From positions 244,994 to 308,993 of the forward strand of contig CAVRNT010000001.1 of NCBI GenBank assembly GCA_963722655.1: 64,000 nucleotides of DNA. The letters run 5' to 3'. Under the pieces are notes generated by a model. The model worked only from the letters and a program-made list of their open reading frames with translations. It made no database searches and was not told the origin of the DNA. This document shows, piece by piece, positions 4,289 through 56,391 of this stretch. The stretch comes from an uncultured bacterium. Lineage in GTDB: Bacteria > Patescibacteriota > Minisyncoccia > UBA6257 > GWB1-50-10. The translations under genes were made by a program, and so were the position numbers. Every line of letters begins with the position of its first letter. Position 1 is the stretch's first letter.

Positions 4289-7150
4289 TTGCGGTTTGCG
4301 GGCCGGCTTTTAGAATTGACTATGTCGTTTAAATTTCCAAATTCTATGTCCACCGCGAAGAGAGCCGCGCGCGCGGCAAAGGGAAAAGGGGAGGAGAAAA
4401 AGGTCTCGAAGCGGTTCGCCGTGCCGCTCAAGCGGTTCTTCACGCAGGCGAACGTCGACCCCTTCGACGAAGTGCGGTGGGTGAAGTGCGATGCGGTCGT
4501 CGGTAGCGGAGAAAAGAAGGTCTTCGAACAAAAGGACGTCGAGTTCCCGGATTTTTGGTCGCAGAACGCCGTGAACATCACGGTCGCGAAATATTTCCGC
4601 GGCCAGCTCGGCAAACCCGAGCGCGAAAACAGTTTGAGACAGATGATCGGCCGGGTCACCAACGTCCTGCGCGCCTGGGGCGAGCGCGGCGGTTACTTCA
4701 CCGGTCCCGGGCAAGCGCAGATCTTCGAGGACGAGCTCAAACATCTTTTGGTCCACCAGCAGGGTTCCTTCAATAGTCCGGTTTGGTTCAACGTCGGCTC
4801 GCGGGAGAACCCTCAATGTTCCGCCTGCTTCATTCTCAGGGTGGAGGACGAGATGAGCGACATCTTGGATTGGATCAAGACGGAAGGAATGATCTTCAAA
4901 GGCGGCTCCGGCGCGGGCGTGAATCTCTCGAACCTGCGTTCGAAGCTCGAACCGCTCTCTGGGGGCGGCTACGCCTCCGGTCCGGTCTCCTTCATGCGCG
5001 GGGCGGACTCCGTTGCCGGCATGATCAAGTCCGGCGGCACGACCCGCCGGGCGGCGAAGATGGTCGTGATGAACATCGACCATCCCGACGTGATAGATTT
5101 CATCCGCGCTAAAGCGGAGGAGGAGAAAAAAGTGCGGGCGCTCATGGAGGCCGGCTACAACATGGCGGATTTGAACAACGACGCCTGGAACTCCATCCAA
5201 TATCAGAACGCCAACAACTCCGTCCGCATCACCGACGACTTCATGGAGGCGGTCGAGAAGGACGGCGATTGGCAGACCCGCTTCCGCGTCTCGGGCAAAA
5301 TCGCCCAAACCTACAAGGCCCGCGAGGTCTTGGAGAAGATCGCCGAGGCGGCCTGGGAATGCGGCGACCCGGGCGTCCAGTTCGACACCATCATCAACAA
5401 GTGGCACACCTGCCCCTTGTCCGGCCGCATCAACGCCTCCAACCCCTGCAGCGAGTACATGCATTTGGACAACTCCGCCTGCAACCTGGCCTCGATCAAT
5501 CTTCTGAAGTTCTTGAACGCGGACGGCACCTTCGACGTCAAGGCCTTCAAGCAGGCGGTGGACGTCTTCATCTTGGCCCAAGAGATCATCGTCTCGGGCT
5601 CGAGCTACCCGACGGAGAAGATCGCCGAAAACGCGCATGATTTCCGGGAACTGGGGCTGGGCTTCGCCAATTTGGGGGCCCTCCTCATGACCAAAGGCCT
5701 GGCTTACGATTCCGAAGGCGCCAGGGCCTTAGCCGGGGCGATCGCCTCCTTGATGTCCGGCGAGGCCTACCGAATGTCATCGGAGATTGCCGCGCGCATC
5801 GGGCCTTTTGCCGGCTACGCCCTGAACCGCGAACTGATGCTCCGGGTCATCAAGATGCACGACGCGGAATCCAATAAGATAGATGCCGCCGTTTTGGACG
5901 ACAAAAAGCTGGGCGCCGAAGCCCGGAAGGTCTGGGACGAGGCGCTCGAGGCGGGCGAAAAGAACGGCTACCGCAACTCTCAGGTCACGGTCATCGCCCC
6001 GACGGGGACCATCTCCTTCATGATGGACTGCGACACGACGGGCATCGAACCGGATTTCGCCTTGGTCAAGATGAAGCAGCTCGTGGGCGGCGGCTGGATG
6101 AAGATCGTGAATGAGAGCGTCCCGCCGGCCTTGAAGAACCTAGGTTACGGCACGGCGGAGGCGAAGGCGATCATGGACTACGTGCGGGAAAGCGGCACGA
6201 TGGAAGGCGCGCCCGGATTCAAAGAGGAACATCTACCGATCTTCGACTGCGCCGTCCGCTCCGGCAAGGGGACGCGCTCCATTTCCTGGAGAGGCCACGT
6301 GCGCCTCGTGGGCGCGGTCCAGCCCTTCATCTCGGGCGCGATCTCGAAGACCTTCAACATGGCGAGCGACGTGACGAAAGAGGAGATCGAAGAGGCCTAC
6401 GTGATGGCCTGGAAGTTGGGCATCAAAGCCTTCGCCGTCTATCGCGACGGCTCCAAGGCGACCCAGCCCTTGAACACCTCTGAGAAGAAGGACGGTAAGA
6501 AAAGCGACAAGGCTCTCGGCGACGGCGTTTCCCGCCGGAAGTTGCCGACGACCCGAGTTTCCGAGACCCACAAGTTCGCCATCGTCGGCCACGAAGGCTA
6601 TCTGACCTACAGCATGTACGACGACGGGATGCCGGCCGAGATCTTCATCCGGATGTCGAAGCAAGGGAGCACGCTCTCGGGGCTCCTCGACGCCTTCGCC
6701 ATCTCGGTCTCGATGGCCCTCCAGTACGGCGTGCCCTTCAAGGCCTTGGCCCACAAGTTCATCTACAGTCGCTTCGAACCGGCGGGCTTCACCGAGAACC
6801 CCCAGATCCGGATCGCGACGAGCATCATCGACTACATCTTCCGCTACCTCGCTTTGCGGTTCATGACCGCCGAGGACCTCGCGGAGTTCGGAATGACCCA
6901 AGCCCTCGAGGGCCACGATGTCCATACCGTGAAATTGGAGGCGCCGAAGACGGTCGTGATCGACGCCAAACCCGCCGAGGTCGACGAAACCGCCAATGGT
7001 GGAGGCGAATCGCTCTATTCGGCGTCAGCGAATAAGTCGGGTACGGTGCTTGCCGAGACGGTCTGCAAGAACTGCGGCGGCATGATGGTCCGCACGGGCA
7101 CCTGTCTCACCTGCCTGCAGTGCGGCAGCTCGTCTGGCGGCTGCTCTTGA
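4289..7150 (+). CDS. nrdJ: adenosylcobalamin-dependent ribonucleoside-diphosphate reductase (class II RNR)
   Basis: 953 aa with class II RNR hallmarks (NSPVWFNVG, CSACF active-site region, C-terminal Cys-rich CKNCGG...CLTCLQCG tail); start may be the ATG at 4322. Confidence 0.85.
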   Translation: MRFAGRLLELTMSFKFPNSMSTAKRAARAAKGKGEEKKVSKRFAVPLKRFFTQANVDPFDEVRWVKCDAVVGSGEKKVFEQKDVEFPDFWSQNAVNITVAKYFRGQLGKPERENSLRQMIGRVTNVLRAWGERGGYFTGPGQAQIFEDELKHLLVHQQGSFNSPVWFNVGSRENPQCSACFILRVEDEMSDILDWIKTEGMIFKGGSGAGVNLSNLRSKLEPLSGGGYASGPVSFMRGADSVAGMIKSGGTTRRAAKMVVMNIDHPDVIDFIRAKAEEEKKVRALMEAGYNMADLNNDAWNSIQYQNANNSVRITDDFMEAVEKDGDWQTRFRVSGKIAQTYKAREVLEKIAEAAWECGDPGVQFDTIINKWHTCPLSGRINASNPCSEYMHLDNSACNLASINLLKFLNADGTFDVKAFKQAVDVFILAQEIIVSGSSYPTEKIAENAHDFRELGLGFANLGALLMTKGLAYDSEGARALAGAIASLMSGEAYRMSSEIAARIGPFAGYALNRELMLRVIKMHDAESNKIDAAVLDDKKLGAEARKVWDEALEAGEKNGYRNSQVTVIAPTGTISFMMDCDTTGIEPDFALVKMKQLVGGGWMKIVNESVPPALKNLGYGTAEAKAIMDYVRESGTMEGAPGFKEEHLPIFDCAVRSGKGTRSISWRGHVRLVGAVQPFISGAISKTFNMASDVTKEEIEEAYVMAWKLGIKAFAVYRDGSKATQPLNTSEKKDGKKSDKALGDGVSRRKLPTTRVSETHKFAIVGHEGYLTYSMYDDGMPAEIFIRMSKQGSTLSGLLDAFAISVSMALQYGVPFKALAHKFIYSRFEPAGFTENPQIRIATSIIDYIFRYLALRFMTAEDLAEFGMTQALEGHDVHTVKLEAPKTVVIDAKPAEVDETANGGGESLYSASANKSGTVLAETVCKNCGGMMVRTGTCLTCLQCGSSSGGCS

Positions 7151-7962: not shown

Positions 7963-8034
7963 TCCCCGGTAGCTCAGTGGTAGAGCGGCGCTCTGTTAAA
8001 GCGATGGTCGTAGGTTCGAATCCTACCCGGGGAG
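7963..8034 (+). tRNA. tRNA-Asn (anticodon GTT)
   Basis: Cloverleaf TCCCCGG-TA-GCTC-AGTGGTA-GAGC-G-GCGCT-CTGTTAA-AGCGA-TGGTC-GTAGG-TTCGAAT-CCTAC-CCGGGGA-G; anticodon GTT is flanked by U33 and A37. Confidence 0.85.
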
Positions 8035-9618
8035 CATTACTGGATTTCGGGCATACAAATGCCCGATTTTCTTTTTATTCGCGTGCTTTTTAGCAGGTTC
8101 TAACCCTGCGGATATTTCTTGCGCTTCTTTTGCCGCAGTTTGTATCGGGAACAGCAGATTATCCAAAGAAACACTCAATTTTTTGTCTTTTAGGGTGAGG
8201 TCCGAACCTAACGCCATAAAAATCCCTTTTTTCACTTCCATATCCTTCGTGGTAGCGAATATCTGCCGGGCCTTCTCTGCGAAGTTAAGGCCGCGCTCAG
8301 CAATTTCAAGCCAGTTCTCAACGCGCTTATCCGTATCTTTAAGCAGTTCCTGAAGCCGCTCTTTCTCCGCGAGTATTGTTTCCTTCTTGCTTTTGAACTC
8401 GTCCTCGGTAATCTCGCCGTTGGCACGCATATCAATCAAATTGTCTCCTCTACGTACGCACGCCTCGTATTCACGCCTCTGGTTGCCGTAAATGCGCTCC
8501 CGGTCCTCAACCTCCTTCTCGTTCATCTGCCGCAATCGCGCCATCGCCCACTCCTTGAAATCGGTTGGGATTTCAAGCTTGGCAAGCTCGGCGGTAATCT
8601 GCTTTTCAAGCTCGTCCTTCTCTATGGCCTGTTGCGTGCAATTCGGGTCCCTGCGTTTGGTGCAGTGATAGTAGGTGTAGTGATGCACATTGCCGTTTTT
8701 CTGGTGCTTCATTTTTTCCTCGGCGGTAATCATCGCACCGCACTCGCCGCAATGTATCGGCCCGCGATATACGATGTCGCGCTTTTGCCCTCGCGGTTGC
8801 GAACGCCTGCCGAGCAGAAACTGTATCCGGTCATACTCCTCTCGCGTAATCATCGGCTTGTGTATGCCCTTATGCCATTCTCCGCTTCCCACCGGATATT
8901 CAAACTCCCCGTAATAGAATGGGCGGGTTAGAAGCAGATAGATATTACTTCTGCTAAAAGGTTTGCCGTTAGGCATACGAAGGCCCCAATCTTTCGTTGC
9001 TATCTCCAAAATGCGCGGCGGCGTGTATTTACCAGTAAGCATCAGGTCAAATATCTTCCGCACAATATCAAAACGCTCCGGGTCTTCGTGAATGGTTTTG
9101 TATCCTTTCTCCCCGTATTTATCGTTCAAGTAGCCAACGGGAGCCGGTGCAGGATAAATGCCCATACGCGCCTTCTGCCCTAGTCCGCGTTTCACATCGC
9201 GTCCTTTCTTTGCGCTCTCGTATTGCGATTGTGAGAGCGCCATTTGAAGCATCCAAATACCCTCGGGTGTGTTCTCAAAGTGATAGGTTGCGAGCTTGAG
9301 GTCTTCTATAACCCCAGTGCGTATCATATAGGTAATTTCGCCAGCGTCTTTCTCGTTGCGCGAGAGACGGTCTGGATGCCACGCAACCAATCCGGTCCGC
9401 TCGCCGCTTTTTATCCGTTCAAGCATATCCGCGAACGCGGGGCGATTGAACGGCTTGAACGCGCTCGCCTTATCTTCCACAAACTCAACGTCCAATTTTC
9501 CGAACACTTCATTGAGCTTGTCTTTCTGCGCGGGGATGGACAACGCTTGTCTCTCCTCGCCCTCGGTGGATTTTCTTACATACGCGAAGTATTTAATTTT
9601 ATTTGTGTCTTTACTCAT
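8023..9618 (-). CDS. large serine recombinase (serine integrase)
   Basis: MSKDTNKIKYFAYVRKSTEGEE gives the catalytic Ser in a resolvase-type N-domain, followed by a recombinase domain and a Cys-rich zinc ribbon (HCGECGA...YYHCTKRRDPNC) and a coiled-coil; about 531 aa; stop overlaps tRNA-Asn. Confidence 0.85.
   Translation of the reverse strand: MSKDTNKIKYFAYVRKSTEGEERQALSIPAQKDKLNEVFGKLDVEFVEDKASAFKPFNRPAFADMLERIKSGERTGLVAWHPDRLSRNEKDAGEITYMIRTGVIEDLKLATYHFENTPEGIWMLQMALSQSQYESAKKGRDVKRGLGQKARMGIYPAPAPVGYLNDKYGEKGYKTIHEDPERFDIVRKIFDLMLTGKYTPPRILEIATKDWGLRMPNGKPFSRSNIYLLLTRPFYYGEFEYPVGSGEWHKGIHKPMITREEYDRIQFLLGRRSQPRGQKRDIVYRGPIHCGECGAMITAEEKMKHQKNGNVHHYTYYHCTKRRDPNCTQQAIEKDELEKQITAELAKLEIPTDFKEWAMARLRQMNEKEVEDRERIYGNQRREYEACVRRGDNLIDMRANGEITEDEFKSKKETILAEKERLQELLKDTDKRVENWLEIAERGLNFAEKARQIFATTKDMEVKKGIFMALGSDLTLKDKKLSVSLDNLLFPIQTAAKEAQEISAGLEPAKKHANKKKIGHLYARNPVMLPG
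8045..8077 (+). terminator. tRNA-Asn terminator hairpin encoded inside the recombinase 3' coding region
   Basis: TCGGGCATacaaATGCCCGA followed by ttttcttttt. Confidence 0.55.
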
Positions 9619-9771
9619 ATGAAAAACCCGAAAGGGACGGTCTGGTTGACCCGATATGTGCAATCGCAAGGACTGACAGCATAGCGGCAGACCGCCCCTT
9701 CCGGGCCACTATGCTTTTTGGTAATAAAAATGCCTTGCGTGTCTTCGTACATAATCGGGTCAACATTATCA

Positions 9772-10959
9772 TTATACGCCGTTTTCCAATGAATCCAAGT
9801 TAATGGGCTCAAACCGCTTAAATGCCTCATCAATAAAGGCGATGGTATTGGAATATGGCAACCCGTGCGTAAGCTCGGCAGAGGCCTCAATTTTGCGCGT
9901 TAGGCGCTCGCTGTGGTCCGTATTCCATACGCTGAATATGGCTCTGCGCGTCTCCTTCGCTCCGTGGTCTTGTATGGTCCGCGCCAATCCGTAAGAAGTC
10001 AGCGCCCGGTTCATACTATGCGCCTCGCCGCCGAGCTTCTTCGCCTGTGAAAATATGTGCAAGAGCAATGCTAAGTCATCAGTGGGGCCAAGAAGCGCGA
10101 GCTGGTTTTCCGGCCGCCGGATAAGCCCGTGCCAAGAATTAAGTATTATTGTTTTGCAAAGGTTTGGGGTGAAAAGGTCTTTGAAAGCAATAAATGTTTT
10201 TGGATTTCTCCCCAGTGCGGCATTTATCTCGCGCATCACCGTCTGCCCCTTTTTAAGCCGGTATTCATACCGAAACACCTCTTGTTTCTGCAATCCAAAG
10301 CGTTCAATTATGGCTCGTTCGTAATCAATGCGCCCCTTATCTTTGCGTTTTATTTTCGGGCGCATAGCATCCGCAATTTTGTCGTAAAAAACCCGTTCAA
10401 CTGTGCCCGAGTAGATATGAAGCACCCGCCCGTTTTTGAACTCAACTTTTGTAATGTCCACTACCTTGCTTATATCCACGCGCTGGAGTTCCGCCAGTGC
10501 CTCCTGCATTCGTATGTCTCGTGGCAGTGGCACGTTCTTGCAGAAATGGACCGCCGAGACATAGGCACTAGCCACTATATTGCTCTCAATCGCTATACCA
10601 ACGCTATTTAGCGCTTCTTTGAAAGCGTAAAGCACCTTATCAAAATCAAGTTCGGACACCTCCTGCAAGCTGTTTCTATTAAGCAGTTTCGGTACCGAGA
10701 ACTCGGCCTTGAGGATATACCGCACGGCATCGCGGCTTTCGGTAAGCGCCTCAAGAACTTCTACTCTCGGCCGGTAGCCGTTCTGATAAGGCGGCTTCAA
10801 GATAAAACGCCGGAGGTAGGGATGGGTAGATTGCTGGGATTGTTTTTCGGTCTGCGAAAGCTGAAAATAATTACGTTTTGAGAACTCGGGTAGAAACCAC
10901 GATAGCTCCGTAATTTGAAACTTATCCGCTCCGTAGATTTTGATAATGACCGTATCCAT
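9772..10959 (-). CDS. hypothetical protein with Rep_trans-like motifs (rolling-circle replication initiator / MobT-type relaxase family, tentative)
   Basis: 395 aa; segments ...GRVLHIYSGTVERVFYDKI... and ...EVFRYEYRLKKGQ... resemble the Rep_trans motifs (YxGsr..lRiYdK and wRvEiElk); lies next to the integrase as in IMEs/ICEs. Confidence 0.45.
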   Translation of the reverse strand: MDTVIIKIYGADKFQITELSWFLPEFSKRNYFQLSQTEKQSQQSTHPYLRRFILKPPYQNGYRPRVEVLEALTESRDAVRYILKAEFSVPKLLNRNSLQEVSELDFDKVLYAFKEALNSVGIAIESNIVASAYVSAVHFCKNVPLPRDIRMQEALAELQRVDISKVVDITKVEFKNGRVLHIYSGTVERVFYDKIADAMRPKIKRKDKGRIDYERAIIERFGLQKQEVFRYEYRLKKGQTVMREINAALGRNPKTFIAFKDLFTPNLCKTIILNSWHGLIRRPENQLALLGPTDDLALLLHIFSQAKKLGGEAHSMNRALTSYGLARTIQDHGAKETRRAIFSVWNTDHSERLTRKIEASAELTHGLPYSNTIAFIDEAFKRFEPINLDSLENGV

Positions 10960-11065
10960 AGTCGTTTTTAATGTTGTCGGTGTTTTTCAAGGAATCCGCT
11001 CCGTAGATTTTGATAATGACCGTATCCATAGTCGTTTTTAATGTTGTCGGTGTTTTTCAAGGAAT
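10924..11065. repeat. perfect 70-bp tandem duplication (2 copies) covering the start and upstream of the Rep_trans-like gene and the 3' end of the 70-aa ORF
   Basis: 10926-10995 and 10996-11065 are identical (ccgctccgtagattttgataatgaccgtatccatagtcgtttttaatgttgtcggtgtttttcaaggaat). Confidence 0.95.
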
Positions 11066-11250
11066 CCTTTAGTGGTTGGCGCAGGATTTTGCGCGTTTTT
11101 TTGTTCGCTTGCGACTGCACGGCTTACCACTTCAACCAAACGGATAAGCCGCAAGCCCTTTTCAAGTGCCTGCTCCTTGGTTATCTCAACCCCAAAATGC
11201 TTTTTATAAAGCATCTGGAACTCGGAAATGTTTTTGTCGGTAAGGTCCAT
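11038..11250 (-). CDS. small hypothetical protein (70 aa)
   Basis: ORF MDLTDKNISEFQMLYKKHFGVEITKEQALEKGLRLIRLVE...; predicted helical and possibly DNA-binding; its C-terminus lies in the tandem repeat. Confidence 0.4.
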   Translation of the reverse strand: MDLTDKNISEFQMLYKKHFGVEITKEQALEKGLRLIRLVEVVSRAVASEQKNAQNPAPTTKGFLEKHRQH

Positions 11251-11367
11251 AGTTATTCGCTGTTCATTGCGTCCCTACCCTATATGCTGAAAAATCAGCG
11301 AAATAAAAAAACGTTGTAATAACGGGGGTTCTTGGATACGCTGGAAAGAAAAAAGCCTTCTGATTTT

Positions 11368-13275
11368 TCAGAGGGCTTCTTCCTCATCATCTTCCTCACC
11401 GCCTTCAATCGCCTCATTTTCATTAAACCTACCACCTTGAGGCCAGATTTCTTCTTTTCTTAAAACTGGTTCCGGTAATATGGCGAACTTTGGTTTATAG
11501 CGGTCGTGTATATCGTGGAATGGTTCATCGTTAGTTTTGAAAATCTCCTTTAACCACTTCACGAGTAATTTTTTCGCTTGCTGGACATTGTTCACAGATA
11601 AGGTTTTGTTTTTTGTAATCATTGGACGCATATTTTCTGCTGATGCATATTTGAAATCACTTGCCGATAGCGTGGATAAGGCACATAGAAAACCCCATTG
11701 CCGGTCTGGCTTCTGCTGGCGCTTACCGACAAAAAAACGAAGTTGAATGTAATCGGCAGTTATGATGTGGCTATTGTCATAAAAAATCTCAATCTCTTGC
11801 CGCCCTTCTTTTATCTTGAGTGTAACTTTCTCCCATTGGACCGGCTCTGGGAATGACAGCTCAATTGGCGACTCTCGCTTTTTACTCTTTGCATTAGGAG
11901 CTTCTCCTACAAATCTGACCGGCACTTCTGGCATAGCTGTGATTTCAATTTTCTGCACCGTTTGTTGAATCTGCTGGTTGTTTGGAGCAAAAGACATATT
12001 TTTGAGGCTCCTAACAATTGCTTCATCAAGTGCATCAATAATTTTTTTGCTTTTACCTTGCCATTTTTCTTCTGCCGAAATATCAATCAAATCCTTCTTC
12101 TCGCTACCGGCGACTCTCGTTGCGTTTGCAATACGCTCAATAAGCTTGGAGCTCTTCTTCATCTCTTTACTTATCTCTGTAGCGTCTGGTTTCAACGCAG
12201 ATATTTTGAGAAGAAATGCGCTTACGAGGTCTGAAGGACTTTCCGCTTTTTTTGCCTTCGCTTCAATATGAGCTGTTGCAAGTGAAGTAAATGGTCGCGC
12301 ATAGGTTTCTTTAAGGGGGTCAAGCTTGCCCCATTCTACCATCTCCTCAACTTTTCCAATGATTTCAAGATATAACCCCTCAAGCTCTTTATGGTCCAAA
12401 GCTTTATTATTTTCGTACGCGTTTACCAAAATAATCAATTGGCTCCAAAACACCCACAATCGCGCTATATCTTTAGGAGACCACACTTTATATGCCACCA
12501 GTTCAACATCTTTGCCATCCGAATCCGTCCACTCGTTAATCCCCAAATCCAACGCTTCTTCTGTGGGACCTATGTATAGTTTCCCATCTTTAATTTGTAT
12601 GCGGTCATATTTTAGCCATCCGTTATATTTCTCCTGCGTTTCTTTAGCTTTTGTCTCATCTCCCTCAAAAAATAATGGATGGACGGCTTCTTCAATGACT
12701 TTATATAAGGCCCGGCGGACCTTCTGGTTTGATGAGGTGTTTAACACTCGGAAAGCGCTGAAAAGCATCCTCCACTTGGTGTTTGGATACACAATAATCG
12801 TTGCTGGAGCACCACGCTCTTTAAGCAAATCAATAAGCTCTGGCCCAGTTTTGCGCTCGGCAATGTCTTTTGCAATAAGTTCAAGTGTTTGTGCGCGGAT
12901 TACCCCATCGTTATTCCTATCACTCAATAACTTCTTTATTTTCCCTCTGTCTGAAATGCGCAGATATGTCTTCAGAGGATGGACAGTTTCTATACCGCCG
13001 CTTTTGACAATTTCAACTTCAACCTTCATCCCCGGTCCCTTTTGCTCGGAGATTTTGATGCCACCCATATTTTCCAAGAAACGCCAGAATGAATTATTGT
13101 TTATCAGCGTCTCGGTGCTTTGGGGCTCGCCGGGGAAATGATTGATTATACTTACCTCGGTATCGGTTTCATCAGCCCAAGTTTTTTCGGCAATATCAAT
13201 AAGGCTTTCCAGATAGCGGAATATCTGGGGCGTAAAATCAAAGGGAAGTTTTTCTTTATCGTAGTAGAAGGCCAT
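11368..13275 (-). CDS. large hypothetical protein (about 635 aa), no recognisable domain, acidic C-terminal tail
   Basis: Long uninterrupted ORF in an AT-rich island (unlikely to be spurious at this GC); ATG at 13275 or TTG at 13320; ends ...EGGEEDDEEEAL; divergent from the Type III mod. Confidence 0.55.
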   Translation of the reverse strand: MAFYYDKEKLPFDFTPQIFRYLESLIDIAEKTWADETDTEVSIINHFPGEPQSTETLINNNSFWRFLENMGGIKISEQKGPGMKVEVEIVKSGGIETVHPLKTYLRISDRGKIKKLLSDRNNDGVIRAQTLELIAKDIAERKTGPELIDLLKERGAPATIIVYPNTKWRMLFSAFRVLNTSSNQKVRRALYKVIEEAVHPLFFEGDETKAKETQEKYNGWLKYDRIQIKDGKLYIGPTEEALDLGINEWTDSDGKDVELVAYKVWSPKDIARLWVFWSQLIILVNAYENNKALDHKELEGLYLEIIGKVEEMVEWGKLDPLKETYARPFTSLATAHIEAKAKKAESPSDLVSAFLLKISALKPDATEISKEMKKSSKLIERIANATRVAGSEKKDLIDISAEEKWQGKSKKIIDALDEAIVRSLKNMSFAPNNQQIQQTVQKIEITAMPEVPVRFVGEAPNAKSKKRESPIELSFPEPVQWEKVTLKIKEGRQEIEIFYDNSHIITADYIQLRFFVGKRQQKPDRQWGFLCALSTLSASDFKYASAENMRPMITKNKTLSVNNVQQAKKLLVKWLKEIFKTNDEPFHDIHDRYKPKFAILPEPVLRKEEIWPQGGRFNENEAIEGGEEDDEEEAL

Positions 13276-13399
13276 TGTAATTATTAACTTCAATCTACTG
13301 CTTTTTGCTGATTTTCTCAACGATTTTATGCTAAACTGAAATTACAACTAAATATGCGATAGAGGCCTAACCCCCGTGAGCAAAACTCCGAGGTATGGC

Positions 13400-13545
13400 A
13401 CACATAAGCCCCATCCCTGATACTAAACTCCGCGTTTAGCAACTCAGGGATGGGCTATGTCTCCGAAAGGAGGTGTAGGGCCGAAAGGTCTAGCTAGCGC
13501 GGAGTTTCGTGCTTCTCGCTAGCGACATAGCAACCCATCCCTCTA
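13400..13545 (+). promoter_or_regulatory. structured leader / operator region upstream of the Type III mod gene
   Basis: 11-bp stem CCCATCCCTGA/TCAGGGATGGG with a nested hairpin CTAAACtccgcGTTTAG; second hairpin GCTAGCG...CGCTAGC; AAACTCCGCG and CGCGGAGTTT are mutually complementary; CCCATCCCT occurs three times; strong AAGGAGGTG SD; 21-codon uORF 13457-13522. Confidence 0.4.
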
Positions 13546-15272
13546 TGTCCAAAAAATTAAAATCACAATCAACCATTCCGGCTGTAGCCGCTAAGCCGAA
13601 ATACGACAACTGGTCCAAAGAGCAACTTATTGACGAGGTGGCACGGCTTCGCAAGCGCAAGAAATACGGGCTTGTCTGGGAAGAAAAGCTAGAAAATGTC
13701 GTTGAGCAATGCAAGACAGAATTGCCGGTGCTCAAAGAAGTGAAAAATAAAGCGATTGCGAAAGATAAAAATGGCCCTGTGAACATTCTCATTGAGGGAG
13801 ACAATTACCACGCCTTATCGGTTTTGAATTACACCCACAAAGGCAAGATTGATGTCATCTACATTGACCCGCCATATAATACCGGCGCGCGTGATTGGAA
13901 ATACAACAACGATTATGTGGACGTTAACGACCAGTGGCGACATAGCAAATGGATTTTAATGATGGAGCATAGGTTACAACTGACAAAAAAACTTCTATCT
14001 CAAAACGGATTCATTATATGTGCAATTGACCATAACGAACTTTTCGCGCTTGGTCTTTTGATGGATGAGATTTTTGGTGAAAGTAATAGGTTGGGAACGA
14101 TTACAGTTGTGCACAAGCCAGAAGGAAGACAGTTCGCTAATTTCTTTAGTCCGTCAAATGAGTTTATGTTGGTGTATGCCAAAAATAGAACTTCGGCACA
14201 ATTTGAGAACATCGTTTTAAGTAAAGAGAAGGCGGATGAGTTTGACCTAGTAGATGAGAAGGGAAAGTACAAACTTCAGAACTTCATAAGATTGACTGAT
14301 GGTAAATATAGTTTGCGGAAAAATAAACCCGAGGGATATTACCCCATTTATGTAAGTAATGACTTAGCACATTTCAGTTTAACTAAAAAGAAGGGATACG
14401 ATGAAACACTGCCCATCACGAACAAGGGCGTGGAAAGAGTTTGGAAAACTTTTGGAGATACTTTTATGGATAAGGTAGGCAATGAGGCAATCGTGGCAAA
14501 AAGAGAAAACGGGAAAATAGTATTATACGAAAAATTAAGGCCGAGTGAAGTTCTGGTTACGCATTGGATTAAGAAACAGTATCACGGGTATCACTTTGGC
14601 ACGAAGTTATTAGAAACGATTTTAGGCAAAAAGTTGTTTGATTTCCCCAAATCTCTTTACTTGGTTCTAGATATTTTGAAACTTACCACAAGAAGAAACG
14701 CTATAATTTTAGATTTTTTCGCTGGCTCTGGCACTACTGGGCACGCTGTCCTTGAATTGAATAAGGAGGACGGTGGTAATCGCCGGTTTATTCTCTGCAC
14801 GAACAACGAAAATAACATCGCCACAGAAGTTTGTTATCCACGCGTAGCAAAAGTAATTGATGGATATAAAGATGCGGCGGGGAAAACAATTGCTGGTATC
14901 AAAAGCAATCTCAAATACTTCCGCACGGCATTTGTGGGCGCAGAGCCGAATGACAAAAACAAAGAAGCCCTAACTAAGAAGGCAACTGAAATGCTTTGTA
15001 TGCGCGAGGACACTTTTGAGTCGGTAAAAGAAACGGGTGCGGTAAAGATATTCAAAAACTCAAAACAGCATACCGGCATTATCTTTGATGAGGATGCTAT
15101 CCCTGCGTTAAAAAAAGAAATTGTGAAGATTGACGGCGCGTGGAGCATCTATATCTTCTCTCTTGGCGATGACACTTTTGAGGACGAGTTTGAGGATATG
15201 AAACAAAAGATAACCGTTGCGCCGATACCCGAGGCGATTTTGCGGGTCTACCGGCGCATATTCAAACCATAA
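13509..15272 (+). CDS. mod: Type III restriction-modification system methyltransferase (Mod), N6-adenine DNA methylase
   Basis: IYIDPPYNTG (DPPY motif IV), FAGSGTTG (motif I), ILIEGDNYHAL N-terminal motif typical of Type III Mod / Type IIG methylases; GTG start at 13509 (GGAG SD) or ATG at 13545. Confidence 0.8.
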   Translation: MLLASDIATHPSMSKKLKSQSTIPAVAAKPKYDNWSKEQLIDEVARLRKRKKYGLVWEEKLENVVEQCKTELPVLKEVKNKAIAKDKNGPVNILIEGDNYHALSVLNYTHKGKIDVIYIDPPYNTGARDWKYNNDYVDVNDQWRHSKWILMMEHRLQLTKKLLSQNGFIICAIDHNELFALGLLMDEIFGESNRLGTITVVHKPEGRQFANFFSPSNEFMLVYAKNRTSAQFENIVLSKEKADEFDLVDEKGKYKLQNFIRLTDGKYSLRKNKPEGYYPIYVSNDLAHFSLTKKKGYDETLPITNKGVERVWKTFGDTFMDKVGNEAIVAKRENGKIVLYEKLRPSEVLVTHWIKKQYHGYHFGTKLLETILGKKLFDFPKSLYLVLDILKLTTRRNAIILDFFAGSGTTGHAVLELNKEDGGNRRFILCTNNENNIATEVCYPRVAKVIDGYKDAAGKTIAGIKSNLKYFRTAFVGAEPNDKNKEALTKKATEMLCMREDTFESVKETGAVKIFKNSKQHTGIIFDEDAIPALKKEIVKIDGAWSIYIFSLGDDTFEDEFEDMKQKITVAPIPEAILRVYRRIFKP

Positions 15273-15275
15273 AAT

Positions 15276-54417: not shown

Positions 54418-56391
54418 ATGGGTGGAATGGATTGGAGAAGATCGCTGAACGACGCCCAGCGCCTGGCGGTCGAGACGACCGAAGGGCCGGTCCTCGTGAT
54501 CGCCGGCGCGGGTTCCGGCAAGACGCGGGTCATCGAATACCGCGTTTTGAATTTGCTCGAAAAGGGCGTCGCGCCCGAGGAGATCCTCCTTCTCACCTTC
54601 ACTAAAAAGGCGGCCCGAGCGATGCTCGAGCGCGCCGCTTCGCACGACGGCCGGGCGGCCTACGTCCAGGGCGGCACCTTCCACTCCTTCGCCTACGGAA
54701 TTTTGCGCCGGCATGGAGCGCGGCTCGGCATCTCAAGTCGGGCGACGGTCTTGGGCGAAGGCGATGCCCAAGAGGCGGTCGGCCGGGCGCTCACGCGCCT
54801 AGGCTTTGGCGGCAAAGGCGACGACCATTTCCCCAAGAAGGCGACGGTCGCGAGGATCTTGAGCGCCGCCCGGAATCGCGCGACGTCCATCGCGGAAGTT
54901 TTGGACGATGAATATCCGCATTTTGCCCAGTATGCCGGGCAGATCGAGGCGATTGGCGAGGAATACGCGCGGTACAAGAAGAAGTTCGGCTATTTGGATT
55001 ACGATGACCTTCTGGTTTTGACCGTTGAGCTCCTCCGCGATGATGAGGCGCGGGAACTCGTCGCCGGTAAGTACCGCTACATCATGGTGGACGAGTATCA
55101 GGACACGAACCCTGCCCAGGGCGAGATCACTGAGCTTCTGGGCCGTAGGCACCGGAACGTAATGGTCGTGGGCGACGACGCCCAGAGCATCTACCGCTTC
55201 CGCGGCGCCTCGCACGAGAACATCATGCGCTTCCCGGAAAAATTCTCCGGCTGCAAGGTCTTGAAGCTTGAGGATAATTACCGAAGCGTCCAGCCCATCC
55301 TGGACCTCGGGAACGCCATCCTCGCCGATATGCCGAAGAAGTTCGCGAAGACGCTCAGGGCCACGCGCCAAGGGAGAGAACCCCCTCAACTTCTTTATTT
55401 CGAGGATGCCGAGACGGAGGCGGAACATATCGTGGGCGAAGTTGTCTCTCTGAAGCGCCGAGGTGCCGGGCTCAAGGACCAAGCCGTCCTTTTTCGTTCC
55501 TCTTACATCTCGATCCCGCTCCAAGCGGCCCTCGCTCGGGCCGGAGTGCCTTTCCGCGTCTACGGCGGTCTCAAGTTCTACGAAATGGCCCATGTGAAGG
55601 ACGTCTTGGCCTTCCTCCGCGTCGCGGCGAACTCGAAGGACGAGATCTCCTGGCACCGTGTCCTCACGCTCCTCCCGGGCGTGGGGGAACGGACCGCGGC
55701 GGGGATCTATGCGGCGGTCTCCGGCGGTGGGCGCGGCACATTCCGCGAAAAATTAGAGAAGGCCTCCGGGAAAATCTCCGCCGATATGTTCAAGATAGTT
55801 TCCCTCTTGGACGAAGCCGCGGAGGACGCGCCCGGGAAGTCATTCCGCCTCATCCTCAAGGGTTATCTGCCCTTTATGCGCGAGAAGTTCGACGACTGGC
55901 CAATGCGCCTCGCCGACCTCGAGGTCCTTGCGGACATCGCGGAGGAGTACAAAAGCGCCCGCGACCTTTTGACCGATCTCGCCTTGGAGACGCCGGAGCG
56001 CGCGGAGCGGGGGAACGAGCACGAGGAAACGCTCACGCTCTCGACGATCCACTCCGCGAAGGGCTTGGAGTGGAAAGTGGTCTATCTCTTGGGTGTCGAG
56101 GAAGGGGTCCTACCATCCAAGATGGTAAGGAAGGACGAGGAGGTGGAGGAGGAAGAGCGCCTGCTCTACGTCGCCGTGACCCGCGCCAAGGATCGGCTGA
56201 CGCTTCTTTTTCACTTGGAAGGCCGGGAAAGTGGTAACTTACCGTTCAACCGGTTATCAAGATTCCTCACTCCGCCCGAGATCGGCGATCTTTTAGGCCA
56301 GCGCGACCTCTCGGGTCTCGGCCTCGCCGCGAAGATAAAGGCGGAGAATGAAAGTGATGGCCTGGAGACCGAGGATTTCGTGGATTATTAG
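54418..56391 (+). CDS. uvrD: ATP-dependent DNA helicase, UvrD/PcrA/Rep family
   Basis: AGAGSGKT Walker A, DEYQDTN, SF1 helicase motifs throughout 657 aa. Confidence 0.9.
   Translation: MGGMDWRRSLNDAQRLAVETTEGPVLVIAGAGSGKTRVIEYRVLNLLEKGVAPEEILLLTFTKKAARAMLERAASHDGRAAYVQGGTFHSFAYGILRRHGARLGISSRATVLGEGDAQEAVGRALTRLGFGGKGDDHFPKKATVARILSAARNRATSIAEVLDDEYPHFAQYAGQIEAIGEEYARYKKKFGYLDYDDLLVLTVELLRDDEARELVAGKYRYIMVDEYQDTNPAQGEITELLGRRHRNVMVVGDDAQSIYRFRGASHENIMRFPEKFSGCKVLKLEDNYRSVQPILDLGNAILADMPKKFAKTLRATRQGREPPQLLYFEDAETEAEHIVGEVVSLKRRGAGLKDQAVLFRSSYISIPLQAALARAGVPFRVYGGLKFYEMAHVKDVLAFLRVAANSKDEISWHRVLTLLPGVGERTAAGIYAAVSGGGRGTFREKLEKASGKISADMFKIVSLLDEAAEDAPGKSFRLILKGYLPFMREKFDDWPMRLADLEVLADIAEEYKSARDLLTDLALETPERAERGNEHEETLTLSTIHSAKGLEWKVVYLLGVEEGVLPSKMVRKDEEVEEEERLLYVAVTRAKDRLTLLFHLEGRESGNLPFNRLSRFLTPPEIGDLLGQRDLSGLGLAAKIKAENESDGLETEDFVDY

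What the first reader, a model, noticed from the sequence alone, without database searches (positions are those of the whole stretch)
10924..11065. Perfect 70-bp tandem duplication spanning the start of the Rep_trans-like gene
Two identical 70-bp copies (10926-10995 and 10996-11065) duplicate the first 34 nt of the 395-aa ORF plus its upstream region, and overlap the 3' end of the 70-aa ORF. The upstream copy creates an out-of-frame second ATG. Perfect identity implies either a very recent duplication or an iteron-like repeat. Its position directly 5' of a putative rolling-circle initiator / relaxase gene is where double-strand origins, oriT nick sites or copy-control repeats are usually found.
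Basis: seen in the sequence. Interest (0 to 1): 0.6.

Follow-up and report, generated by a model that had tools for sequence, protein, structure and literature searches.

The report
Recent duplication at a Rep origin
A perfect 70-base tandem duplication begins exactly at the edge of a 26-base DNA signal conserved in front of a rolling-circle-type replication gene in a widespread family of integrated mobile elements of Patescibacteria, and the same edge is a repeated breakage-and-joining point in relatives, so it is most likely the element's nick site.

Summary
Window 10924-11067 holds 2.06 perfect copies of a 70-nt unit, the only sizeable tandem repeat in 64 kb. It is a derived, recent duplication, not an iteron array: the closest relatives (79% protein identity, four metagenomes) and about 70 other relatives have one copy.

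A 26-nt motif, GGnTTCCTTGAAAnnnRCCGACAACA, lies 9-12 nt before the rep ATG in essentially all relatives. Conservation stops abruptly at its 5' GG. The window's unit starts exactly there. So do two independent tandem duplications (18 nt in L034, 133 nt in L142), a 56-nt deletion (L131), and context switches where 100%-identical rep modules carry unrelated upstream DNA.

My best reading is that the motif is the initiator's origin or nick region and the duplication is a by-product of nicking or strand transfer at it (about 0.5). Plain slippage, an assembly artefact, or another recombinase remain possible. No read data were available.

The parts
10924..11067 (-). Perfect tandem duplication: 2.06 copies of a 70-nt unit. 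On the gene (minus) strand the unit reads GGATTCCTTGAAAAACACCGACAACATTAAAAACGACTATGGATACGGTCATTATCAAAATCTACGGAGC.
   Evidence: TRF; sequence; only large tandem repeat in the window.
11042..11067 (-). Copy 1 of the conserved 26-nt motif GGATTCCTTGAAAAACACCGACAACA. This is the upstream copy, next to the small ORF, and it contains the last codons of the 70-aa ORF.
   Evidence: The motif is present once per locus in relatives, and conservation stops abruptly at its 5' GG.
10972..10997 (-). Copy 2 of the 26-nt motif, 12 nt before the true rep ATG. The new junction GAGC|GGATTCC lies at 10998/10997 and is ambiguous within GGAT (10994-10997).
10924..10927 (-). GGAT inside rep codons 11-12 (GCG GAT). 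This is the microhomology or pseudo-site that forms the right end of the duplicated segment.
   Evidence: the repeat extends 4 nt beyond two full units.
9772..10959 (-). 395-aa gene for a rolling-circle-initiator-like protein (Rep_trans fold). Y192-D-K, D2, S88, N142 and E232 are invariant across the wider family.
10921..11029 (-). Decoy ORF created by the duplication: 35 codons (12 rep codons, then out of frame), overlapping the true rep ATG at 10959.
11038..11250 (-). 70-aa ORF, a conserved partner gene found upstream of rep in most relatives. It has no Pfam family. Its stop lies in motif copy 1.
8023..9669 (-). Large serine recombinase (Resolvase, Recombinase and Zn_ribbon_recom domains) directly downstream of rep. 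Its ORF runs 13 nt into the tRNA.
7963..8035 (+). tRNA-Asn (GTT), which marks the island boundary. Relatives abut tRNA-Asp, Gln, Asn, Glu or His in the same way.

Best explanation
What it is. The repeat is a real, very recent tandem duplication inside an integrated mobile island of about 12 kb with low GC (about 8.0-20 kb of the window). The island is carried by a Patescibacteria-type genome next to tRNA-Asn. Its core module is: small ORF, 26-nt motif, rep, large serine recombinase, tRNA.

Shown. The 26-nt motif GGnTTCCTTGAAAnnnRCCGACAACA is a family-wide cis element. The nucleotide just 5' of its GG is a recurrent endpoint of rearrangements: three independent tandem duplications, one deletion, and several swaps of the upstream DNA.

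Inferred. The motif is the recognition or nick region (double-strand origin and/or oriT) of the Rep_trans-fold protein encoded right behind it. After serine-recombinase excision, the protein would nick at or next to A|GG (the strand is not resolved) and start rolling-circle replication or transfer.

Inferred origin of the duplication. After a nick at the motif edge, the 70 nt downstream were copied. Then the end was rejoined at a look-alike site, GC|GGAT, in rep codons 11-12. This could be aberrant Rep-catalysed termination or strand transfer, or nick-stimulated slippage on the GGAT microhomology. Either route yields motif...GGAGC|motif...GGAGC|GGAT.

Inferred consequences. The island now has two directly repeated candidate origins 70 nt apart, an arrangement expected to be unstable, which fits its perfect identity and its rarity. 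It also has a decoy ATG and a 35-codon ORF between the small ORF and rep, which probably lowers Rep translation.

My confidence by layer: real and recent duplication about 0.85; motif is a cis element and its edge a recombination hot spot about 0.9; hot spot caused by Rep nicking about 0.5.
For: - Repeat: perfect and unique in the window.
- Copy number: single copy in the closest relatives L037-L040, which come from four data sets.
- Motif: present in 36 of 36 loci chosen by protein similarity. It is within about 40 nt of the ATG in 35 of them; in L033 (as in the metagenome locus L090) it lies upstream of an inserted small ORF. It occurs once per locus.
- Sharp edge: mean pairwise identity is 0.31 in the 40 nt upstream, 0.90 in the motif and 0.64 in the first 60 coding nt.
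- Not coding-driven: upstream ORFs stop in different frames and places.
- Upstream variety: 20 unrelated upstream contexts among 69 loci.
- Same endpoint, duplications: L034, 18 nt x2.2, 100%; L142, 133 nt.
- Same endpoint, deletion: L131, clean 56-nt deletion relative to L012 and L118.
- Same endpoint, context swaps: L007 versus L013/L045 are 100% identical over the first 400 nt from the GG (99.6% over the 3.04-kb match that runs to tRNA-Asp) and unrelated from the base before it. L007 and L013 versus L132 are 100% identical over the 118 nt available. L130 versus L144 behave likewise (99.8% over the first 400 nt; 95.8% over the 1,253-nt BLAST match).
- In L013 the junction cuts a DGR target gene.
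- Contig L040 starts exactly at the GGG.
- No other perfect tandem duplication with period 15 nt or more exists in the rep loci.
- Literature: the dso usually lies upstream of rep, and cassette junctions in RCR plasmids drop from near-perfect identity to none across one base pair (PMC5703833). A Rep_trans-type relaxase performs strand transfer in vitro, and Rep_trans bind sites lie just downstream of the nick (PMC9371924).
- The host encodes a UvrD/PcrA-type helicase.
Against: - No nicking, replication or read data exist.
- The canonical Rep_trans/MOBT nick signature (CT'AA in the loop of a GC-rich hairpin) is absent. The window's unit has no significant structure, and only about 15% of relatives have a hairpin next to the motif.
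- Almost nothing 5' of the proposed nick is conserved (A at -1 in 74%). Known RCR origins usually need some sequence on both sides for termination.
- The window duplication has a 4-nt microhomology, so ordinary slippage explains it on its own.
- L142's second copy runs off the contig end.
- The window protein matches no Pfam model, and Foldseek and sequence profiles find no solved Rep. The catalytic-Tyr equivalence was not verified by superposition.
- L034 and L142 were found partly through motif searches. This ascertainment does not, however, affect where the duplications start.
Confidence: 0.5

Rival explanations
1. Ordinary replication slippage or microhomology-mediated duplication on the two GGAT tetranucleotides, unrelated to Rep. 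In this reading the 26-nt motif is a regulatory element for rep and recombinase expression (an operator, a 5'-UTR or a translation signal). The shared endpoints arise because conservation, and hence recombination between diverged elements, simply begins there.
For: - There is a 4-nt microhomology at the window junction and a 3-nt one in L034.
- The motif lies 9-12 nt before an ATG that has no Shine-Dalgarno sequence.
- The known Rep_trans nick architecture is absent.
- There is no hairpin in the unit.
- Homologous exchange between elements that share only the core module would also make identity start at the module edge.
Against: - Three duplications of different lengths (18, 70 and 133 nt), one deletion and several swaps all end at the same nucleotide, in elements with different flanks.
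- L142 shows no microhomology relative to its near-identical relative L159.
- In L013 the junction truncates a gene.
- No sigma-70-like promoter is predicted at the motif, and a -10 position would fall in the variable spacer.
- The motif occurs nowhere else in the window.
Confidence: 0.22
2. Assembly artefact: the genome has one copy (or a different number of copies) and the assembler or scaffolder produced the tandem pair.
For: - Identity is perfect and the source is a metagenome-assembled contig (P0001 comes from a single 379,531-nt contig).
- No reads were available.
- Relatives are single-copy.
Against: - De Bruijn assemblers tend to collapse tandem repeats, not create them.
- 70 is not a usual k-mer or overlap length.
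- The junction sits on a 4-nt microhomology at a site where independent assemblies from other studies show analogous junctions (L034, L142, L131).
- There are no other such repeats in the 64 kb.
Confidence: 0.08
3. Unequal site-specific recombination by the adjacent large serine recombinase (or another recombinase), using the motif as a secondary site and GGAT-containing pseudo-sites on a sister copy.
For: - A serine recombinase is encoded 1.3 kb away in every locus.
- The endpoints are sharp and repeated, as expected of a site-specific enzyme.
Against: - Serine-recombinase sites are about 40-50 bp with two-fold symmetry around the crossover. Here only one side is conserved and there is no dyad.
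- The recombinase's own junction is at the tRNA end, where a different conserved box is seen.
- The pseudo-sites share only about 3 nt with the motif.
- No copy of the tRNA end or a second site is found in the window.
Confidence: 0.07
4. A functional iteron-like or copy-control repeat: the two copies are maintained because two binding sites are needed for origin function or for rep regulation.
For: - The position is directly 5' of the initiator gene.
- Each copy carries the full conserved motif.
Against: - About 70 distinct relatives, including the closest ones, have one copy.
- Half of the unit is the 5' end of the rep coding sequence.
- The upstream copy creates an out-of-frame decoy ORF.
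- The three duplications known differ in length (18, 70 and 133 nt), so no unit is conserved.
Confidence: 0.03

Closest known systems
Double-strand origins of Rep_trans rolling-circle plasmids (pT181/pC221) and oriT of MOBT relaxases (ICEBs1 NicK, ICESt3 RelSt3)
   Same: - The cis site lies next to the initiator gene.
- If the nick is on the rep-sense strand, the conserved sequence lies just 3' of the inferred nick, like the ICRIII bind site (PMC9371924).
- Like MOBT elements, this one is integrated and carries a recombinase.
   Different: - There is no CT'AA nick in a GC-rich hairpin loop, and no inverted repeat in the conserved site.
- The protein fails the Rep_trans Pfam model and lacks the N-terminal HTH of MOBT relaxases. 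Its model starts with a beta strand at residue 3.
- The hosts are Patescibacteria, not Firmicutes.
- The partner is a large serine recombinase and the element sits at a tRNA.
Filamentous-phage gene II protein (Pfam Phage_CRI / G2P N-terminal) and the f1 plus-strand origin
   Same: - This is the only Pfam family that relatives reach above the cut-off.
- From my own knowledge of f1: the gpII recognition sequence lies mainly 3' of the nick, and little 5' sequence is needed for initiation. That matches the one-sided conservation seen here.
   Different: - No phage genes are present, and the motif gives no hit in IMG/VR contigs.
- The window protein itself does not reach the model.
- The f1 nick lies in a hairpin, which is absent here.
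Nick-site-associated illegitimate recombination and cassette exchange in rolling-circle plasmids (pC194/M13 deletions; qacC and lnuA cassettes bounded by the dso)
   Same: - Rearrangements have one end fixed at a single nucleotide next to the initiator's site.
- Identity drops from about 100% to none across one base pair. This is as described for RCR plasmid cassettes (PMC5703833; PMC5037232).
   Different: - Those cases are small plasmids of Firmicutes with HUH (Rep_1) or Rep_trans initiators and mapped nick sites.
- Here the element is integrated and the nick is only inferred.
- Tandem duplications, rather than deletions, are the most visible product.
IS91/ISCR/Helitron-type rolling-circle transposons (one-ended transposition from an ori end)
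   Same: - One conserved end lies next to the initiator-like gene, with variable DNA beyond it.
- The motif even contains GTTC and CTTG, the IS91 target tetranucleotides (my own knowledge), in some variants.
   Different: - The protein is not an HUH Y1/Y2 transposase.
- The other end of the unit is always the same tRNA junction next to a serine recombinase.
- The small-ORF partner lies upstream in 45 of 69 loci, so the unit is not hopping freely.
Iterons of plasmid origins
   Same: Direct repeats immediately upstream of an initiator gene.
   Different: - There are only two copies, which are perfect.
- The unit is 70 nt and half coding.
- Relatives are single-copy.

Membership tests
Rep_trans / Phage_CRI rolling-circle initiators (PF02486, PF05144) | Match to the Pfam model above the gathering score | tested here: not met
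   The window protein gives 0 Pfam families at E up to 1. Relatives do reach the Phage_CRI cut-off of 21.7 bits: P0101 26.0, P0190 31.4, P0205 22.2 bits. One distant relative reaches Rep_trans at 20 bits against a cut-off of 29.6.
Rep_trans / Phage_CRI rolling-circle initiators (PF02486, PF05144) | Rep_trans fold, as in the RepD/RepDE and Geobacillus Rep structures | tested here: met
   [not shown]
Rep_trans / Phage_CRI rolling-circle initiators (PF02486, PF05144) | Conserved catalytic tyrosine | tested here: inconclusive
   Y192 and K194 (in FYDK) are invariant, and D193 nearly invariant, in 49 sequences down to 20% identity. Equivalence to RepC Y188 / RepD Y191 (numbering as quoted from PMC5703833) could not be checked, because no superposition output was available and the profile did not reach the PDB Rep sequences.
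Rep_trans / Phage_CRI rolling-circle initiators (PF02486, PF05144) | Origin with the nick (CT'AA) in the loop of a GC-rich hairpin and an inverted-repeat bind site just downstream | tested here: not met
   The unit has no significant structure. The motif has no dyad and no CT'AA. A hairpin next to the motif is present in only about 15% of relatives, with non-conserved loops. The definition is taken from PMC9371924.
Rep_trans / Phage_CRI rolling-circle initiators (PF02486, PF05144) | Site-specific nicking with a covalent 5'-phosphotyrosyl adduct | not testable with these tools
   This needs biochemistry.
MOBT relaxase of an integrative mobilizable or conjugative element | N-terminal HTH domain plus Rep_trans domain | tested here: not met
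   The model begins with a beta strand at residues 3-9, with no N-terminal helical domain. There is no HTH Pfam hit.
MOBT relaxase of an integrative mobilizable or conjugative element | Association with a coupling protein or T4SS, in cis or in the genome | not tested
   The 25 window ORFs scanned against Pfam include no T4SS or T4CP gene. The rest of the genome was not available. Patescibacteria commonly carry MPF_FATA-like T4SS without known relaxases (PMC12102498).
Iterons (origin or copy-control direct repeats) | Several short (about 17-22 bp) direct repeats conserved in number and sequence among related replicons | tested here: not met
   There are two copies of 70 nt in the window only. 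About 70 distinct relatives are single-copy. The duplications in L034 and L142 have different lengths.
Large-serine-recombinase attachment site (attP/attL/attR) | A site of about 40-50 bp with imperfect two-fold symmetry around a central dinucleotide, conserved on both sides in attP | tested here: not met
   Conservation is one-sided: 0.19 bits per position upstream against 1.78 in the motif. The full motif is retained in all contexts, and the recombinase junction at the tRNA has a different conserved box.
IS91/ISCR rolling-circle transposon | HUH Y-transposase with ori-IS and ter-IS ends | tested here: not met
   The fold is Rep_trans-like, not HUH. The distal end is always the tRNA junction next to the serine recombinase.

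The most novel reading that the evidence does not exclude
The 395-aa protein family has 891 representatives at 50% identity. It is almost all unannotated and is typically linked to a large serine recombinase at tRNA genes. In the most novel reading it is a previously unrecognised, Patescibacteria-wide branch of Rep_trans/gpII-fold nickases. It would act as the replication initiator and/or the 'missing' relaxase of small integrated mobilizable islands. Its nick site would have a new architecture: a 26-nt single-sided recognition sequence, nicked at its 5' edge, with no hairpin. Rep-catalysed strand transfer at that site would then drive cargo exchange, deletions and tandem duplications such as the one in this window.
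Probability: 0.35. Interest if true: 0.75.

Novelty: new variant of a known kind. Interest (0 to 1): 0.6.

Why it matters
The duplication alone is a small, probably transient mutation. It nevertheless points to one nucleotide where DNA is repeatedly broken and rejoined in a widespread, undescribed family of mobile islands in Patescibacteria (CPR bacteria).

These bacteria carry conjugation-like type IV secretion systems, yet almost no recognisable relaxases have been found in them. [quoted passage not shown]

A divergent Rep_trans-fold protein with a sharply defined 26-nt site gives a directly testable candidate. A nicking assay needs only an oligonucleotide and the purified protein.

The finding also offers a mechanism for how these islands swap cargo (restriction-modification systems, toxin-antitoxin genes, DGRs, reverse transcriptases) next to a constant rep-recombinase core.

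Tried and rejected
- PHROGs and NCBIfam scans of the rep, small-ORF and 650-aa proteins gave nothing meaningful.
- phmmer and two profile searches against PDB sequences returned only chance uS4 and TFIIB matches.
- The afdb50 library was unavailable.
- BFVD gave two unnamed viral proteins at probability 1.0 that I could not interpret.
- Exact-sequence look-up of the window's own protein found no contig. The cluster look-up gave no name. The source organism and its reads therefore stayed out of reach.
- The motif scan of IMG/VR gave 0 hits.
- The metagenome motif scan was only partly specific: 84 of 121 matches were chance hits in unrelated coding DNA.
- I searched for a second copy of the tRNA-Asn 3' end as a far att site and found none.
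- I considered that the motif mimics the tRNA T-arm and so acts as an att site. I rejected this after comparing motifs and tRNAs locus by locus.
- At first I read L090 as a recombination junction at the 3' edge of the motif. I rejected this: it is a 67-aa ORF inserted between motif and rep, as in L033.
- RNAalifold on the hairpin subgroup predicted nothing because of alignment gaps. A direct stem search replaced it.
- The promoter scan found no sigma-70-like site at the motif.
- GC skew follows gene orientation and says nothing about an origin.
Full report
**1. The observation**

Tandem Repeats Finder reports window 10924..11067 as 2.1 copies of a 70-nt unit with 100% matches, no indels and score 288. 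The generic repeat finder gives the same pair. It is the only tandem repeat above score 60 in the 64-kb window.

The genes here lie on the minus strand:
- tRNA-Asn, 7963..8035 (+).
- A 548-aa large serine recombinase, 8023..9669 (Resolvase, Recombinase, Zn_ribbon_recom).
- The 395-aa ORF, 9772..10959.
- A 70-aa ORF, 11038..11250.
- A 650-aa ORF, 11368..13320.

On the gene strand the region reads ...AAA|GGATTCCTTGAAAAACACCGACAACATTAAAAACGACTATGGATACGGTCATTATCAAAATCTACGGAGC|GGATTCC...GGAGC|GGATAAG.

Each unit therefore carries about 36 nt of upstream DNA plus the first 34-36 nt of the 395-aa gene. The repeat ends on a 4-nt microhomology (GGAT). The upstream copy contains the last codons of the 70-aa ORF. 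It also creates an out-of-frame ATG that opens a 35-codon ORF overlapping the real start.

**2. The gene behind it**

The 395-aa protein matches no Pfam, PHROG or NCBIfam model and no PDB sequence. It has 260 close homologues, nearly all unannotated and from Patescibacteria MAGs. A profile search finds 891 representatives at 50% identity.

Two of 28 close relatives and three of nine distant ones reach Pfam Phage_CRI (the G2P N-terminal domain of filamentous phages). Three of these five are above the gathering score. One distant relative gives a sub-threshold Rep_trans hit.

Across 49 sequences down to 20% identity, D2, P64, S88, N142, Y192, K194 and E232 are invariant. Y192-D-K sits on a strand-to-helix turn. 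'Rep_trans-like' is thus supported at fold level. Family membership by sequence model is not met for this protein.

**3. The element**

tblastn of the window's proteins against 36 loci from GTDB genomes shows a conserved module. It consists of a Type III restriction-modification system on the other strand, a 650-aa protein, the small ORF, sometimes one more small ORF, rep, and the large serine recombinase. The recombinase gene ends at, or a few bases inside, the 3' end of a tRNA on the opposite strand. The tRNA is Asp, Gln, Asn, Glu or His, depending on the lineage.

In the window the segment from about 8 to 20 kb has 39-50% GC, against about 61% for the flanks. It carries Type III mod and res genes and a SocA/Panacea antitoxin-like gene. 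The flanks are housekeeping genes: ftsA, ftsZ, a class II ribonucleotide reductase and aminoacyl-tRNA synthetases. This is an integrated mobile island.

**4. The conserved motif**

I printed -140..+45 around the rep start of the 36 loci selected only by protein similarity. This exposed a 26-nt DNA motif, GG[A/G/T]TTCCTTGAAA[nnn]RCCGACAACA. A TTCCAAGAAA variant occurs in the most distant clade. The motif lies 9-12 nt before the ATG in 35 loci. In L033, and in L090, it sits upstream of a 67-aa ORF inserted before rep. It occurs once per locus.

A pattern scan of JGI metagenome contigs returned 121 matches on 120 stretches. Of these, 37 are followed by the rep gene. The rest are chance matches in unrelated coding DNA. 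IMG/VR viral contigs gave none.

In 65 distinct instances, mean pairwise identity is 0.31 in the 40 nt upstream, 0.90 in the motif and 0.64 in the first 60 coding nt. Information content is 0.19, 1.78 and 1.07 bits per position respectively. These instances were picked with a pattern, so the motif figures are partly circular. The protein-selected set shows the same picture.

Upstream ORFs end in different frames and places. In the window the ORF reads through the motif; in the closest relative it stops at the TGA inside CCTTGAAA. The conservation is therefore not due to coding.

The motif is not a general promoter. No sigma-70-like site is predicted there, a -10 position would fall in the variable spacer, and the motif occurs nowhere else in the window. 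It has no dyad symmetry, and the window's unit has no significant fold (z +0.46).

**5. The duplication is derived and recent**

The closest relative (P0002, 79% identity) is seen on four contigs from four data sets. All have a single copy...CCCAGCA|GGGTTCCTTGAAAAACACCGACAACATAAAAAACGCCTATGGATACAGTC.... About 70 distinct relatives are single-copy. Iteron-like function is therefore not supported.

**6. The key result: a shared endpoint**

The window's unit begins exactly at the 5' GG of the motif. The same is true of several other events.

a) L034 is a Sungiibacteriota MAG with 41% protein identity. It has a perfect 18-nt tandem duplication, GGATTCCAAGAAATTTTA x2, followed by GGACAACA.

b) L142 is a JGI contig. 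A second motif copy starts 133 nt after the first, joined to rep codon 32 (...GAATATGC|GGATTCC...). The near-identical L159 continues with AGAATT at that point, which means no microhomology. The contig ends 31 nt into the second copy.

c) L131 has a clean 56-nt deletion relative to L012 and L118. It removes the end of the small ORF and joins ...CGTCCGA(A)|GGATTCC.

d) L007 and L013/L045 are 100% identical over the first 400 nt from the GG, and 99.6% identical over the 3,043-nt match that runs to the tRNA-Asp. From the base before the GG they are unrelated. L132 provides a third context: the 118 nt available are 100% identical to L007 and L013. L130 and L144 behave likewise: 99.8% identical over the first 400 nt from the GG, 95.8% over the 1,253-nt BLAST match.

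e) In L013 the DNA abutting the motif is the 3' part of a DGR target gene whose 5' part is missing.

f) Contig L040 starts exactly at the GGG. This is what a unitig does when several upstream contexts meet one shared segment; that reading is my inference.

Altogether there are 20 unrelated upstream contexts among 69 loci. 45 of the loci carry the small-ORF or DUF5659-type neighbours.

No other perfect tandem duplication with a period of 15 nt or more exists in the rep loci. A duplication that contains the motif could start anywhere upstream of it, yet all three start at the same base. That coincidence does not depend on how the loci were found.

**7. Interpretation**

A fixed rearrangement endpoint at one nucleotide, next to the gene of a rolling-circle-type nickase, matches what is described for RCR replicons:
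- Resistance cassettes are bounded by the dso nick site (PMC5037232).
- Nick-site-anchored deletions in pC194 and M13 are known from the older literature. This is my own knowledge and I did not read those papers here.
- The dso usually lies upstream of rep.
- A Rep_trans-type relaxase catalyses strand transfer in vitro, and Rep_trans bind sites lie immediately downstream of the nick (PMC9371924).

I therefore infer that the motif is the initiator's recognition region and that the nick falls at or next to A|GG.

A simple scheme reproduces the window's anatomy. The protein nicks at the motif edge. The 3'-OH is extended through the motif and the first 36 nt of rep. A second cleavage and joining occurs at the look-alike GC|GGAT in codons 11-12. 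The new strand is thereby ligated to the displaced old strand, giving motif...GGAGC|motif...GGAGC|GGAT.

The secondary sites used in the four events begin GGAT, GGAC, AGAA and AGAC, so they all read RGA after the break. The mirror-image scheme on the other strand fits equally well. In that scheme the 26 nt lie 5' of the nick, as in classical relaxase sites. The nicked strand is therefore unresolved.

Nick-stimulated slippage on the GGAT microhomology is an equally acceptable variant of the same idea.

**8. What speaks against it**

- No biochemical or read evidence is available.
- The known Rep_trans/MOBT signature (CT'AA in a GC-rich hairpin loop) is absent.
- Only 10 of 65 instances have a perfect inverted repeat of 7 bp or more abutting the motif, against 1.5% of shuffles. 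The arms differ between loci, so that hairpin is real in one subgroup, but the window lacks it.
- Hardly anything is conserved 5' of the proposed nick.
- The window event alone is fully explained by slippage.
- The catalytic-Tyr equivalence is unverified.

Rivals and my weights:
- Slippage plus a regulatory motif: 0.22.
- Assembly artefact: 0.08.
- Unequal recombination by the serine recombinase: 0.07. This is disfavoured because the conservation is one-sided and has no dyad, and because the recombinase's own junction at the tRNA carries a different conserved box.
- Functional iteron: 0.03.

**9. Consequences in this genome (inferred)**

Two direct copies of a candidate origin 70 nt apart should be unstable if the protein is active. 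Initiation at one and termination at the other would delete the unit again. This fits the perfect identity of the copies and the rarity of such duplications (3 of about 70).

In the single-copy state, the stop of the small ORF lies 8 nt before the rep ATG. After the duplication, that position is occupied by a decoy ATG and a 35-codon ORF that runs over the true start. Rep translation is therefore probably reduced.

**10. Novelty**

I found no description of this element family or of the motif in the searchable literature.

A 2025 survey found MPF_FATA-like T4SS throughout Patescibacteria but only 109 relaxase homologues, one of them MOBT. [quoted passage not shown] In Firmicutes, MPF_FATA systems work with Rep_trans-type (MOBT) relaxases.

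The family found here is a candidate worth testing. No T4SS gene was found among the ORFs scanned in this window, and co-occurrence was not examined.

I rate the finding as a new variant of a known kind: an RCR-initiator origin or nic site with a different architecture, in a new host group. Interest is moderate to high, because the inference is directly testable with one protein and one oligonucleotide.

Noticed in passing
L007:4925-4965, L012, L008, L021, L055, L139, L142:2295-2329 (gene strand, just 5' of the motif): In one subgroup (10 of 65 instances, against 1.5% of shuffles) a 7-10-bp perfect inverted repeat ends 0-2 nt before the motif. The arm sequences differ between loci (CACAGCAATC, TGCACAGCAT, AACAAGCAG, CACGACAT, GCACGGCA), so the pairing is maintained by compensating changes. 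One arm lies in the C-terminal codons of the small ORF. The window lacks this hairpin.
   Followed up: partly
L013:2799-5008: A diversity-generating retroelement lies directly upstream of the motif. It consists of a 346-aa reverse transcriptase, a 117-aa Avd-like four-helix protein, a template-like repeat, and a target gene whose 5' part is cut off exactly at the motif edge.
   Followed up: partly
L037:792-3776 (also L038, L039): In the closest relative's island, the window's 650-aa gene is replaced by a 757-aa RVT_1 reverse transcriptase, an HTH_17/MerR-like (excisionase-type) gene and a DUF5659 protein. Cargo next to the constant rep-recombinase core therefore varies strongly.
   Followed up: no
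L090:6897-7100 and L033 (about 4720-4995): A 67-aa ORF (…ITEFIELL(I/L)ETY…) is inserted between the motif and rep in two distant elements. The motif therefore need not touch the rep start.
   Followed up: partly
window 8023-8100; same position in L001-L037: The serine recombinase ORF runs 13 nt into the 3' end of tRNA-Asn. Between recombinase and tRNA, relatives share a short hairpin followed by a box (A/G)TCCAnnAnT just outside the tRNA. This is probably the recombinase's own att arm. No copy of the tRNA end exists elsewhere in the window.
   Followed up: partly
window about 8000-20000: A low-GC island (39-50%, against about 61% in the flanks) carries Type III mod (13509-15272) and res (15276-17513) genes, a SocA/Panacea antitoxin-like gene (17562-18038) and several ORFs without any family. 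Its far boundary was not located.
   Followed up: partly
L007:8005-10765 versus L013:8005-8049: About 2.7 kb lie between tRNA-Asp and tRNA-Met in L007 but only 45 nt in L013. This is a second insertion at the same tRNA cluster.
   Followed up: no
window 11079-11104 (+) and 11346-11377 (-): A terminator-like hairpin plus T-run sits on the plus strand inside the 70-aa gene, antisense to it. By eye there is also a hairpin plus T-run right after the stop of the 650-aa gene on the minus strand, AAGCCCTCTGAAAAATCAGAAGGCTTTTTT, which would separate that gene from the small-ORF/rep/recombinase operon.
   Followed up: no
window 54418-56391 (+): The host encodes a UvrD/PcrA-type helicase. This is the helicase class that Rep_trans initiators recruit in Firmicutes.
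   Followed up: no
[not shown]
   Followed up: no
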